From a virus, in IMG/VR virus record IMGVR_UViG_3300025133_000036, positions 32,001 to 96,000 of that record: DNA of 64,000 bases. One strand, 5' to 3'. Below the pieces are notes generated by a model. The model ran no database searches. It saw only the letters and a program-made list of their open reading frames with translations, and had not been told where the DNA came from. Every line of letters starts with the position of its first letter. Position 1 is the first letter of the stretch. The position numbers and the translations under genes are program-made. This document shows, in pieces, positions 55,370 to 57,316 of the stretch.

Positions 55370-55758
55370 TGAAAACACAATTACTATGCACTTTTTGCGT
55401 AAAACACGAATTTGACACAACTGTTGACCTAATATCTTTAGCTGCAAACGTTGTATTTAATAAAATATATGCGTTTGAAAATCTAGACGATCCTCAGCAA
55501 ATAATTTGTACTTATAATGTAGAAAAATTGGATGACTTTGTTCAAAACAATAAAACAATGGCGATCCACCGGAAAAAAGAAACTAATACTTTATATACTA
55601 TAAATGCTTTAAATGAAGCAATTCGTGAGAATAATGATGGAGTATTAGATAAGTCTTTTTCTTTAGACTGGTCAATGTATCAAAACAGTTTACTTCTTAC
55701 GAACGATAAAGGTCTTAACGTTGTAAAAACAAAATTATATAAAATTGTAAACGTCTAG
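55369..55758 (+). CDS. Conserved-looking hypothetical protein
   Basis: 129 aa; LLCTF, ICTYNV and HRKKETNTLYTINALN. Confidence 0.75.
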   Translation: MKTQLLCTFCVKHEFDTTVDLISLAANVVFNKIYAFENLDDPQQIICTYNVEKLDDFVQNNKTMAIHRKKETNTLYTINALNEAIRENNDGVLDKSFSLDWSMYQNSLLLTNDKGLNVVKTKLYKIVNV

Positions 55759-55766
55759 GACCTCCC

Positions 55767-56000
55767 ATGGAAATTTCAATCGAATATTGTATGCAATGAA
55801 ATTACGAGCCACGAGCCTTCAGGTTGAGGGACGAACTTGGAATTAAATATCCGAATATTGATGATTTTGATATGATACAATCAAAGGGCGGAGTATTCGA
55901 AATTAAACAAATAAACTCATCTAGCGATGAAATATTGCTATTTAGTAAAATTGCCACAGGAAGATTTCCACATCAAGATGAAATAAAAATAAAGTTATAA
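55767..56000 (+). CDS. SelW/SelT/SelH (Rdx family) selenoprotein, 77 aa, Sec encoded by in-frame TGA at 55797-55799
   Basis: Not in the ORF track. After an AGGA SD it reads MEISIEYCMQ-U-NYEPRAFRLRDELGIKYPNIDDFDMIQSKGGVFEIKQINSSSDEILLFSKIATGRFPHQDEIKIKL. It has CxxU, GGVFEI and FSK...GRFP Rdx motifs. Confidence 0.88.
55812..55833 (+). promoter_or_regulatory. Bacterial-type SECIS hairpin
   Basis: CG-ag-CCTTC-AGGTT-GAGGG-a-CG; the apical loop begins about 22 nt after the UGA and contains GU. Confidence 0.7.
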
Positions 56001-56067
56001 AAAACCTGCTTTTCGCCTTTTAATATTATATATATTTTATTACACTTACAAATGTAATAGTTTTTTG

Positions 56068-56495
56068 AAAATTTGAATTTTTTGGAAAGTACAGAGGAGT
56101 AATTAACTCTGTATGGGATTGGCCGAACAATGAGTGGATGAAGAAGCTCATAAGGCAATCTACCTTCAGATCTATAGTGGATCGGTATTCGGGCAAAATG
56201 CACAATATCTTACGACAGTATTGAGGGCTAATGTACTTCTAGAAAAACTTAAAGAACAGCGATTCTTTGACCTTGTTGTGGGTAAGGGTAATACCGAAAT
56301 CCCACCAAGCTGGCTGAATAATCCAAACTTAGAGGGATAAGGCTCCTAACAGAGGTTGTGCTCGCTCAAATGTAAGGTAACACTTATGAGGAGAATCGAC
56401 TTAACCGTCGGGGAAAGGGAACAAGGTAGAAAAATCTAAGCTAGAAGTTGTAGTGTAATCGCAAATCCTACATCCTACCAAATAATTCAGATTTT
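56068..56495 (+). ncRNA. Candidate large structured non-coding RNA (~428 nt), family unassigned
   Basis: 18-bp terminal stem 56068-56085/56478-56495 (one mismatch, one GU), several perfect 7-8-bp internal and long-range helices, a probable pseudoknot, higher GC than the flanks, and a promoter-like ATATATATT at 56028. Confidence 0.75.
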
Positions 56496-56560
56496 GACAA
56501 TGTAACTGTATATATATTAATGTAAATAAACAATGACAAATAAAAATAGGAGTAAATGTT

Positions 56561-57316
56561 ATGGATATTACCGCCATTAAGGCTCGCCTTAATCAACTTC
56601 AACAAGTTAATACAAGAACCTCTTCACTGTGGAAACCTTCACCAGGAAAATCTCAAGTGCGTATAGTACCTTATAAGCACAATCCGGATTCGCCATTTAT
56701 TGAATTATATTTCCATTATGATATCGGTGAAAGATCATACTTGTCACCTGCATCATTTGGCCGTCCAGATCCAATTGAAGAATTTGCAGTTAAGTTGAAA
56801 ACATCTGGAAATAAAGACGATTACAAATTAGGAAGAAAAATCGAGGCTAAAATGCGTACTTTCGCACCTGTTATAGTCCGCGGTGAAGAATCCGAAGGTG
56901 TAAAGTTTTGGGGTTTTGGTAAAACAGTTTATCAAGAGCTTCTTTCTATCATTGCAGATCCAGATTATGGTGATATTACTGATCCAGTAAGTGGTCGCGA
57001 TATTGTAGTTGAGTTTAAAACTAAAGAAGAAACTGGTAAGTCATTTCCAATGACGGCTGTTCGTGCAAAACCAAATCAAACTCCGGTAACGGAAGATCCT
57101 GAGGTTATGAAGACAATCAAAGACACTCAAAAACAAATTACTGAGATTTACCAAGAGCAATCTTATGATGATTTAAAAGAAGTCCTAAGTGGATTTCTAA
57201 ATCAAGAATCAGAGCTCAGTGATAGTGACTTAAATACTGATGCAGTAAAGACTCCAGTTAAAGCTGGTAAAACTGAAGATGTATCGAGTGCTTTTGACGA
57301 TCTATTCAACAACTAG
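56561..57316 (+). CDS. Single-stranded DNA-binding protein (gp32-like)
   Basis: LWKPSPG..VRIVP, FGRPDPI, FWGFGKTVY and DITDPVSGRDI; acidic/aromatic tail SAFDDLFNN. Confidence 0.85.
   Translation: MDITAIKARLNQLQQVNTRTSSLWKPSPGKSQVRIVPYKHNPDSPFIELYFHYDIGERSYLSPASFGRPDPIEEFAVKLKTSGNKDDYKLGRKIEAKMRTFAPVIVRGEESEGVKFWGFGKTVYQELLSIIADPDYGDITDPVSGRDIVVEFKTKEETGKSFPMTAVRAKPNQTPVTEDPEVMKTIKDTQKQITEIYQEQSYDDLKEVLSGFLNQESELSDSDLNTDAVKTPVKAGKTEDVSSAFDDLFNN

What the first reader, a model, noticed from the sequence alone, without database searches (positions are those of the whole stretch)
56068..56495. Unassigned ~430-nt highly structured RNA between the selenoprotein and ssb genes
Seen: closing stem AAAATTTGAATTTTTTGG (56068-85) with CCAAATAATTCAGATTTT (56478-95); TACAGAG/CTCTGTA (56090/56107); GATTG-CC/GGCAATC enclosing ATGAGT/GCTCAT (56117-56160); GATCTA/TGGATC; CAATAT/GTATTG; nested long-range ACTTCTAG (56235) with CTAGAAGT (56441) and ACCTTGTT (56270) with AACAAGGT (56420); AAAGAA/TTCTTT; TGTAG/CTACA. 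The hairpin GTGGG...CCCAC (56278-56305) has a loop AATACCGA complementary to TCGGTATT (56182), which would form a pseudoknot. It has its own promoter-like motif at 56028. Known: phages carry large ornate RNAs such as GOLLD and ROOL. Inference: a large structured ncRNA, possibly a new class (ribozyme, protein sponge, or replication-linked RNA given its place at the head of the ssb-recA-helicase operon).
Basis: partly seen in the sequence, partly recalled or inferred. Interest (0 to 1): 0.85.

Follow-up and report, generated by a model that had tools for sequence, protein, structure and literature searches.

The report
Two-core manA-type phage RNA gene
The gene-free stretch before this marine phage's single-strand-DNA-binding protein gene encodes a real, elaborately folded RNA of about 410-430 bases, but it is an enlarged two-core relative of the known "manA" phage RNA and not a new class.

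Summary
The stretch 56068-56495 (+ strand) holds a real structured non-coding RNA. I collected 54 distinct relatives, 52 of them near full length, from viral and metagenome contigs. A hand-curated structure is kept by compensatory changes in both halves of the family: 43 of 103 pairs in 19 sequences and 38 of 113 in 33. Controls with slid partners gave 3-10.

Its pseudoknot and one hairpin do not. A different 6-bp pseudoknot (56328-33 with 56435-40) is paired in all 51 sequences with letters there.

It is not a new class. Rfam manA (RF01745) matches 56277-56481 at 40.5 bits (E 8e-9), below the 55.2-bit gathering score. A model built from this family's inner core finds the canonical manA of phage P-SSM2 (E 2e-6). 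The fold is one manA frame holding two P3-P4 cores.

It has its own promoter-like box, and the 68-aa ORF is not conserved. The distance to the next gene (gp32, Hsp20 or another) varies, and that gene keeps its own promoter. I therefore read it as a stand-alone RNA gene and not a gp32 riboswitch. A 2026 preprint reports that manA RNAs self-assemble into cages in vitro.

Earlier notes of this scan describe the same family on other phage DNA.

The parts
56027..56035 (+). promoter-like TATATATAT box of the RNA; in relatives a TTTTGRR box precedes it
   Evidence: 48 of 52 homologs have the box, 45 also the upstream box; the same kind of box lies before gp32 in relatives without the RNA
56040..56066 (+). 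short AT-rich hairpin followed by a run of six U; absent in part of the relatives
   Evidence: arms change together in relatives; gapped in about a third of alignment A3
56068..56085 (+). 5' strand of the AU-rich closing stem H0 (pairs with 56478-56495)
   Evidence: (helix 1)
56089..56114 (+). P1 hairpin (8 pairs)
   Evidence: compensatory changes at 4 and 6 pairs
56115..56119 (+). P2 5' strand GGGAU, pairs with 56472-56476 and closes the whole manA frame
   Evidence: (A-U in 19 sequences, G-C in 33); homologous to manA P2
56122..56156 (+). outer P3 hairpin with asymmetric inner loop (GAACA on one side, AA then GG on the other)
   Evidence: aligned to manA P3
56163..56227 (+). outer P4 domain: closing helix plus three hairpins (56169-83, 56184-209, 56211-20)
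   Evidence: L039 counterpart aligned to manA P4 at E 0.014
56235..56242 (+). P5o 5' strand, pairs with 56441-56448 (long-range helix around the inner core)
   Evidence: searches (helix 9; helix 10): 100% paired, compensatory changes
56251..56268 (+). P5h hairpin
   Evidence: 86-90% paired, weak covariation
56270..56276 (+). P5i 5' strand, pairs with 56421-56427
   Evidence: five of seven pairs are 52 of 52 paired, four of them with compensatory changes
56278..56305 (+). inner P1-like hairpin (iP1)
56313..56343 (+). inner P3 hairpin with the manA-type inner loop; its end loop 56328-33 forms the pseudoknot
56346..56417 (+). inner P4 domain with three hairpins (56352-63, 56365-90, 56396-411); its closing helix is weak in the window itself (2 pairs)
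56435..56440 (+). 3' strand of the new pseudoknot PK1 (pairs with 56328-56333)
   Evidence: 19 of 19 and 32 of 32 paired, compensatory changes at two positions in each set
56441..56448 (+). P5o 3' strand
56450..56471 (+). P6 hairpin
56472..56476 (+). P2 3' strand
56478..56495 (+). 3' strand of closing stem H0
56494..56517 (+). gp32's own promoter-like site (TTGACA, 9 bases, TATATATAT); its first two bases overlap the end of H0
56561..57316 (+). gp32-type ssDNA-binding protein gene, the next gene downstream

Best explanation
It is a stand-alone gene for a folded non-coding RNA of the manA class. The core spans about 56089-56476, or about 430 nt with the closing stem. It is read on the + strand from its own promoter-like box.

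Shown:
- One manA-type frame (P1, closing helix P2, P6, 3' tail) encloses two P3-P4 cores of about 110 nt each.
- Two long-range helices (P5o, P5i) clamp the second core. They occupy the place of the local P5 hairpin of canonical manA.
- A 6-bp pseudoknot ties the inner P3 loop to the strand between those helices.

Inferred:
- The RNA is not a switch built into the gp32 leader. It is an optional module that works through its three-dimensional fold.
- By homology with canonical manA RNAs, which a 2026 preprint reports to form closed homo-oligomers in vitro through loop-loop contacts, the most likely mode of action is RNA-RNA assembly. On that reading the two cores are a covalently linked pair.
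- PK1 may be an in-chain version of a loop-loop contact that forms between copies in canonical manA.

My odds:
- Real manA-class two-core RNA: 0.85.
- Stand-alone gene and not a gp32 switch: 0.6.
- Self-assembly as the working principle in cells: 0.3.
The confidence figure of this field (0.6) is for identity plus the stand-alone reading.
For: Homologs. 12 of 80 gp32 loci carry it over its full length. Pattern scans added 35 viral and 49 metagenome stretches. After removing duplicates there were 54 distinct copies, 52 near full length.

Structure.
- 19 sequences, 103 pairs, 88.8% of cells paired against 35-46% when partners are slid; 43 pairs with changes on both sides against 5-9; 0 of 500 shuffles reached this.
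- 33 sequences, 113 pairs, 95.5% against 41-52%; 38 pairs against 3-10; 0 of 500.
- The two sets are about 53% identical. Folded separately, they give the same layout.
- PK1 is 100% paired in both sets.

Family.
- Rfam manA is the only significant hit: 40.5 bits, E 8e-9, over the whole model.
- It scores 37-52 bits in 11 of 11 element-bearing loci scanned.
- The 5' half alone again finds only manA: window 10.1 bits, E 1.5; L039 17.2 bits, E 0.014, through P4.
- Model R1, built only from this family's inner core, hits the P-SSM2 manA at 38.9 bits, E 2e-6.

Non-coding and strand. No conserved ORF. G-U pairs are frequent on the + strand.

Stand-alone.
- It has its own promoter-like box.
- gp32 keeps the same kind of box in relatives with and without the RNA.
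- 59 of the 80 loci have a measurable 86-471 nt spacer and no element.
- The distance from the P2 3' end to the next start codon is 84 nt in the window and 136-910 nt elsewhere.
- In 6 relatives a strong hairpin plus a U-run follows the fold without overlapping it.
- The next gene downstream is gp32 in 38, Hsp20 in 8, a 736-aa protein in 2, no room in 4 and unknown in 1, of 53.

Assembly. Ren et al., bioRxiv 10.64898/2026.07.01.735769; I read the abstract, passages and the discussion.

RNA libraries. 21 RNA-labelled runs of 18 studies hold part of the stretch. Letter-perfect contigs cover 56096-56561 in four laid runs.
Against: - Every family member scores below Rfam's gathering score, so formal membership fails.
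- The manA likeness of the outer core is weak on sequence. Rfam gives E 1.5 in the window. R1 gives only 7-12 bits (E 0.3-8) at the outer cores, none at L015, and chance hits score as high.
- Homologs beyond the first 12 were fished with a pattern taken from the inner core. That favours copies with a conserved inner core.
- The structures were drawn by hand on the same alignments they were counted on.
- The RNA evidence is assembled contigs only. It shows no strand and no ends, DNA carry-over cannot be excluded, and gp32 is covered too.
- The RNA always points the same way as the next gene (48 of 48 assignable). The window has no terminator before gp32. So co-transcription as a long leader is possible.
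- The canonical P-SSM2 manA ends 16 nt before an ORF, which suits cis-regulation.
- Cage formation is an in vitro result from a preprint on RNAs under 200 nt.
- I found no consistently complementary loop pairs between the two cores.
- Minimum-free-energy folding does not favour the + strand.
Confidence: 0.6

Rival explanations
1. It is a cis-acting leader, a riboswitch-like sensor with two binding cores. It would be transcribed from its own promoter into gp32-recA and would tune read-through, stability or translation of the downstream genes in response to a metabolite. This is what was first proposed for manA.
For: manA was listed as a riboswitch candidate upstream of nucleotide-synthesis, ibpA-chaperone, sugar and photosynthesis genes (Weinberg 2010, PMC2864571, passages read). 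The P-SSM2 manA ends 16 nt before purL, followed by hsp20. Here the RNA has the same orientation as the next gene in 48 of 48 assignable loci, and 8 of those genes are Hsp20. There is no terminator between the RNA and gp32 in the window. The inner loops of both P3 copies are strongly conserved. One exact contig in an RNA library runs from the RNA into the gp32 start, 56309-56561.
Against: The spacer to the start codon is long and variable (84-910 nt) and carries the downstream gene's own promoter-like box. I found no conserved expression platform overlapping the fold. Six relatives have a non-overlapping terminator right after it. Close relatives lack the RNA yet keep the same gp32 leader. No ligand is known for manA after 16 years.
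Confidence: 0.25
2. It is a trans-acting RNA that binds or sequesters a host or phage protein, or an RNA. On this reading it works without self-assembly.
For: It has its own promoter-like box, and in some relatives its own terminator. It has large conserved single-stranded loops. It is an optional module among relatives.
Against: No partner is indicated by any result. The only experimental property reported for the family is RNA-only assembly.
Confidence: 0.1
3. It is a protein-coding stretch (the 68-aa ORF 56134-56340) or a mobile element with terminal inverted repeats.
For: An ORF of 68 aa exists in the window. The closing stem looks like inverted repeats. The element is present in some relatives and absent in others.
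Against: The ORF is absent from all 12 homolog loci checked. Pfam finds nothing in it. Substitutions follow base pairs, not codons. Only one copy lies in the 132-kb record.
Confidence: 0.02

Closest known systems
manA RNA motif (Rfam RF01745; Weinberg et al. 2010, PMC2864571); canonical example Prochlorococcus phage P-SSM2, 142837-143034, 181.6 bits
   Same: - A P1 hairpin, the long-range P2 helix (GGGRU with AYCCC), and a P3 hairpin with the asymmetric GAAYAA / UAAGG inner loop.
- A P4 domain with three hairpins, including the G-U-rich loop and the UAAC loop.
- A P6 hairpin and the C-rich 3' tail.
- A marine phage setting, with a promoter directly upstream.
- An Hsp20 gene downstream in part of the members.
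- Reciprocal model hits.
   Different: - About 390-430 nt instead of about 190-215.
- Two P3-P4 cores inside one P2.
- The local P5 hairpin is replaced by two long-range helices plus a covarying pseudoknot.
- An extra AU-rich closing stem.
- Scores of 37-52 bits, all below the 55.2-bit gathering score.
- It lies 84-910 nt from the next ORF, which has its own promoter-like box, instead of 16 nt.
- The carrier phages have a true RecA. Their nearest named relative is a Microcystis phage at 51% identity, not a T4-like cyanophage.
manA homo-oligomers: 8-, 10- and 60-subunit closed assemblies seen by cryo-EM in vitro (Ren et al. 2026 preprint, bioRxiv 10.64898/2026.07.01.735769; abstract, passages and discussion read)
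   Same: The same RNA family. The preprint describes assembly through kissing loops (L5-L7', L8-L9', L3-L8') and a GNRA-receptor contact. Here a loop of P3 also makes a conserved base-paired contact (PK1).
   Different: Here two cores are in one chain, and the P3-loop contact can form within the chain. No oligomer has been shown for this variant. I could not map the preprint's helix numbers onto this RNA with certainty, because its figures and supplements were not available.
Large ornate phage and bacterial RNAs GOLLD and ROOL
   Same: Several hundred nucleotides, many helices, phage-borne, function unknown. Both are reported to form RNA-only multimers (abstract seen in the listing).
   Different: No Rfam match to either at E up to 10 in the region. 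The architecture is unrelated.

Membership tests
manA RNA (Rfam RF01745) | Covariance-model score at or above the curated gathering score (55.2 bits) | tested here: not met
   Window 40.5 bits. Eleven relatives score 37.2-52.0 bits, none over the cut-off. P-SSM2 control: 181.6 bits.
manA RNA (Rfam RF01745) | Statistically significant, full-length similarity to the family model | tested here: met
   E 8.2e-9 over model positions 1-192. E 2.6e-10 for the whole 132-kb record. It was the only family below E 0.1 in the region.
manA RNA (Rfam RF01745) | Reciprocal recognition: a model made from this RNA finds a canonical manA | tested here: met
   R1 (inner core, 51 sequences) hits L167:1525-1626, inside the P-SSM2 manA, at 38.9 bits, E 1.9e-6.
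manA RNA (Rfam RF01745) | P3 hairpin with the conserved asymmetric inner loop, and a P4 domain with three hairpins | tested here: met
   The inner copy aligns with high posterior probability and covaries. A second, outer copy has the same layout, but its model support is weak.
manA RNA (Rfam RF01745) | Long-range P2 helix closing the junction | tested here: inconclusive
   56115-19 with 56472-76 is paired in every sequence with letters there. A-U occurs in 19 and G-C in 33. A mutually exclusive local pairing with 56157-60 shows the same exchange.
manA RNA (Rfam RF01745) | P5 as a local hairpin between P4 and P6 | tested here: not met
   The model's P5 columns are mismatched in every hit. Their place is taken by the 3' strands of P5i and P5o and by PK1.
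manA RNA (Rfam RF01745) | Position directly 5' of a gene, as a cis-regulatory leader | tested here: inconclusive
   Same strand as the next gene in 48 of 48 assignable loci. But it lies 84-910 nt away, with a separate promoter-like box in between.
manA RNA (Rfam RF01745) | Self-assembly into closed homo-oligomers (preprint, in vitro) | not testable with these tools
   Needs purified RNA. A by-eye comparison of the loops of both cores in all distinct sequences found no loop pair that is complementary in all five groups.
Riboswitch (generic) | An aptamer joined to an expression platform that overlaps it (terminator or ribosome-binding-site sequestration) | tested here: not met
   No terminator in the window. 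Terminator-like sites appear in 12 of 49 spacers and do not overlap the fold. Ligand binding cannot be tested here.
GOLLD / ROOL / other large ornate RNAs in Rfam | A match to the family model | tested here: not met
   No hit at gathering scores in the whole window and none at E up to 10 in 55700-56700.
IMES-4 RNA (RF02037) | A match to the family model | tested here: not met
   21.8 bits against a gathering score of 48, E 0.64, at 56036-56115. No such hit at E up to 0.1 in the 12 loci scanned, 11 of which carry the element.

The most novel reading that the evidence does not exclude
The RNA is a natural covalent pair of manA units. Contacts that hold separate manA copies together in the reported cages have here become in-chain contacts (PK1 and the long-range helices). 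The two-core RNA would still assemble into higher-order RNA-only particles in infected cells, made together with the replication and recombination genes. That would be a phage-built RNA compartment or scaffold, not a gene switch.
Probability: 0.2. Interest if true: 0.8.

Novelty: new variant of a known kind. Interest (0 to 1): 0.5.

Why it matters
manA has been an orphan RNA since 2010. It was first filed as a riboswitch candidate, and a 2026 preprint now reports that it builds RNA-only cages in vitro. A natural two-core form bears on this in three ways.

- It stands apart from its neighbour genes, is optional among close relatives, and recurs before gp32 and Hsp20 genes. This argues that the family works as a folded RNA object and not as a switch for one gene.
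- It offers a ready-made construct for testing which contacts matter: PK1, the long-range helices, and the two copies of the conserved P3 loop.
- Rfam's manA model misses the whole subfamily at its gathering score, so these RNAs go unannotated in marine phage genomes.

Tried and rejected
- Rfam at gathering scores over the whole window: nothing.
- tRNA and tmRNA scan: nothing.
- blastn of the region against 50,697 phage records: no match.
- Simple promoter and terminator scan of 55700-56700: 4 promoter-like sites against 3.8 expected, none at the RNA's box, and 0 terminators. The boxes I describe are family-specific motifs, not matches to that consensus.
- IMES-4: weak hit, rejected.
- My own small hairpin 56428-30 with 56435-37: rejected, 64% paired. 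PK1 replaces it.
- RNAalifold on MAFFT alignments of all groups together mis-registers several helices. I therefore treated the two halves of the family separately.
- Complementary loop pairs between the two cores, after the preprint's L5-L7' contact. I compared outer L5 with inner L7, inner L5 with outer L7, and outer L5 with the inner P4b loop. I found only 3-5 bp matches, and only in some groups, nothing consistent.
- Model R1 on the outer cores: not significant.
- Depth in RNA contigs cannot rank the RNA against gp32, so it is not used.
- Parts of the stretch without contig cover in single runs say nothing.
- Literature. I found no paper describing a two-core, tandem or nested manA. PMC7266159 does not mention manA. 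The supplements of Weinberg 2010 and of the 2026 preprint were not available. They may hold variant alignments or helix numbering that bear on the novelty claim and on the PK1 analogy.
- Rows dropped:
  - 4 pattern loci without an nhmmer hit (L139, L143, L148, L149).
  - Identical or contained copies: 93 collapsed to 54.
  - Partial copies L009 and L125 were left out of the alignments.
  - L117 was left out of A4.

Full report
WHERE IT LIES. The window is part of a 132-kb linear IMG/VR virus record estimated 70% complete. The flagged stretch lies between a small Rdx-family ORF ending at 56000 and a gp32-type ssDNA-binding protein gene at 56561-57316. After that come RecA, a 5'-3' exonuclease and a DnaB-like helicase. 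The nearest named phage by RecA is Microcystis phage Mel-JY01, at 51.5% identity.

IS IT CODING? The 68-aa ORF 56134-56340 has no Pfam match. None of the 12 homolog loci first found has a + strand ORF of 60 aa or more inside the element. Substitutions follow base pairs, as shown below.

HOMOLOGS.
- I used gp32 as an anchor to fetch 80 related loci from viral contigs. nhmmer found the element, over its full ~460 nt, in 12 of them.
- Of the other loci, 59 have a measurable spacer of 86-471 nt before gp32 and no element. 9 have too little upstream DNA to tell. The RNA is therefore an optional module.
- A degenerate pattern from the most conserved part found 35 stretches in viral contigs and 49 in metagenome contigs. 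Four of the latter had no nhmmer hit and were dropped.
- After removing identical or contained copies there were 54 distinct sequences, 52 near full length.
- They fall into five identity groups, which form two halves. S1 has 19 sequences and includes the window. S2 has 33. The halves are about 53% identical to each other.

STRUCTURE. I then counted it on MAFFT alignments of each half.
- S1: 103 pairs, 88.8% of cells paired against 35-46% with slid partners. 43 pairs have changes on both sides, against 5-9. No shuffle of 500 reached this.
- S2: 113 pairs, 95.5% against 41-52%, and 38 pairs against 3-10. Again 0 of 500.
- Several helices use quite different letters in the two halves but keep their place. 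P5o and iP1 are examples.

An all-against-all scan for further covarying runs turned up a pseudoknot in both halves independently. The end loop of the inner P3 hairpin (56328-33) pairs with 56435-40. It is paired in 19 of 19 and 32 of 32 sequences, with compensatory changes at two positions in each set, against 4-52% for slid partners.

The AU-rich closing stem holds. In the window the full model has 114 nested pairs plus 6 pseudoknot pairs, all standard pairs. Its energy of -87 kcal/mol is above the computed minimum of -113. Shuffling tests on single-sequence folding do not favour the + strand. The evidence is therefore evolutionary, not thermodynamic.

WHAT FAMILY. Rfam gives nothing at gathering scores. 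At relaxed thresholds the only significant hit is manA (RF01745) at 56277-56481: 40.5 bits, E 8e-9, over the whole model. All 11 element-bearing relatives scanned hit manA at 37-52 bits, none reaching 55.2.

In these alignments P1, P3, P4 with its three hairpins, P6 and the 3' tail fit. P2's 5' strand and P5 do not. The reason is the layout.
- The partner of the 3' P2 strand lies 160 nt further upstream (GGGAU, 56115-19).
- It sits right after a P1-like hairpin and before a second P3-like hairpin and a second three-hairpin domain.
- Searched alone, this 5' half again finds only manA, but weakly: 10.1 bits, E 1.5 in the window, and 17.2 bits, E 0.014 through P4 in L039.
- The two cores are nearly the same length, 107-116 and 109-113 nt.

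A model built only from the inner cores of this family (R1) finds the canonical manA of phage P-SSM2 at E 2e-6. So the homology is reciprocal. At the outer cores the same model scores only 7-12 bits. It starts at exactly the outer-core boundary in five of eight element-bearing sources and falls inside that core in two more, but chance hits score as high.

I conclude that the RNA is a manA-class frame with a duplicated P3-P4 core. The inner core and the frame are securely manA. The outer core is manA-like by architecture, with weak model support. Whether GGGAU pairs with the 3' end (P2) or locally with 56157-60 cannot be settled, because both show the same exchange.

CONTEXT AND MODE OF ACTION.
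- A TATATATAT box lies at 56027-35 and again at 56509-17 before gp32. These are two of only four in the window.
- 48 of 52 homologs have the box before the RNA, and 45 also have a TTTTGRR box upstream of it.
- Relatives without the RNA have the same kind of box before gp32. So both the RNA and gp32 carry this phage group's promoter-like motif.
- The next gene on the same strand is gp32 in 38, an Hsp20 gene in 8 (Pfam HSP20, E 6e-22), a 736-aa protein in 2, no room in 4 and unknown in 1, of 53.
- The distance from the fold to the start codon is 84 nt in the window, the shortest, and 136-910 nt elsewhere.
- What fills that distance differs between relatives: a plain terminator, another conserved hairpin motif, or about 500 nt of unknown sequence.
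- By contrast the canonical P-SSM2 manA sits behind a TTGACA-17-TATAAT promoter and ends 16 nt before purL, followed by hsp20.

The shared Hsp20 link speaks for functional kinship with manA. The loose and variable coupling to the next gene speaks against a switch built into the gp32 leader.

LITERATURE.
- Weinberg et al. 2010 (passages read) list manA as a riboswitch candidate upstream of sugar, nucleotide, ibpA-chaperone and photosynthesis genes.
- A 2023 cyanophage paper only annotates it.
- An orphan-riboswitch review does not mention it.
- Earlier notes of this scan pointed me to a July 2026 preprint (Ren et al.). I then read its abstract, its manA passages and its discussion. It reports that manA RNAs under 200 nt form octamers, decamers and a 60-subunit cage in vitro, held by kissing loops (L5-L7', L8-L9', L3-L8') and a GNRA-receptor contact.
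- No paper I could search describes a two-core form. Supplements were closed.

I had worked out the two-core layout before reading those notes. The preprint moved my reading of the mechanism away from a riboswitch. PK1 involves the P3 loop, as does the L3-L8' contact in the preprint. That analogy is inference. My by-eye comparison of the loops of the two cores found no loop-loop pair that is complementary in all five groups.

EXPRESSION. 21 RNA-labelled runs from 18 studies hold part of the stretch. In four laid runs from four studies, letter-perfect contigs cover 56096-56291, 56218-56426, 56272-56520 and 56309-56561. Many contigs of relatives overlap the conserved parts. These are assembled contigs, which give no strand, ends or level, and DNA carry-over is possible. 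gp32 is covered too.

VERDICT. This is a real RNA gene and a new variant of a known family, not a new class. It is most likely a stand-alone folded RNA whose action rests on its architecture, possibly on RNA-RNA assembly. A leader or riboswitch role is the main rival. The same family was noted by this scan on other marine phage DNA.

Noticed in passing
L128, L043, L162, L136, L004, L012 (just after the RNA); also L006 and L010, which lack the RNA: A second conserved element of about 75-100 nt. It is a long G+C-rich stem enclosing a conserved stretch (TTTTTAGTTTCCAC ... CTTAAAAA) and ends in a U-run. It is not in the window. There was no Rfam hit at E up to 0.1 in the loci scanned that contain it (L043, L012, L004). 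It may be an elaborate terminator or a small RNA.
   Followed up: partly
L039, L037, L099, L094, L160 (about 470-520 nt between the RNA and gp32): These relatives carry a further conserved spacer of about 500 nt. It starts with a Shine-Dalgarno-like GGAGG and a 3-codon ORF and holds long-range complementary stretches. No ORF of 60 aa or more lies in it. There was no Rfam hit at E up to 0.1 in the two of these loci scanned (L039, L099).
   Followed up: no
L035:1496-1567: A tRNA gene (Rfam tRNA, 38.2 bits) lies directly upstream of the RNA's promoter-like box in one relative.
   Followed up: no
window 56518-56552, and the same place in about 20 relatives: The gp32 leaders are A/C-rich, with repeated AACAAT/TAACAA units between the promoter-like box and the ribosome-binding site. 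From memory, T4 gene 32 mRNA has an unstructured leader that gp32 binds to repress its own translation. A similar autoregulation may apply here.
   Followed up: no
window 55767-56000: The small Rdx-family ORF just upstream (Pfam Rdx, E 1.5e-7 for the part after an in-frame TGA) looks like a CxxU selenoprotein gene.
   Followed up: no
window 56115-56119 with 56157-56160 or with 56472-56476: The GGGAU segment can pair either locally, extending P3, or with the 3' end (P2). All three segments changed in concert between the two halves of the family. This could be a chance side effect of a shifted P4, or a sign of two alternative conformations.
   Followed up: partly
L129:9976-12186 and L155 (oriented 706-2940): In two relatives the RNA precedes a 736-744-aa protein without Pfam match, instead of gp32 or Hsp20.
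   Followed up: no
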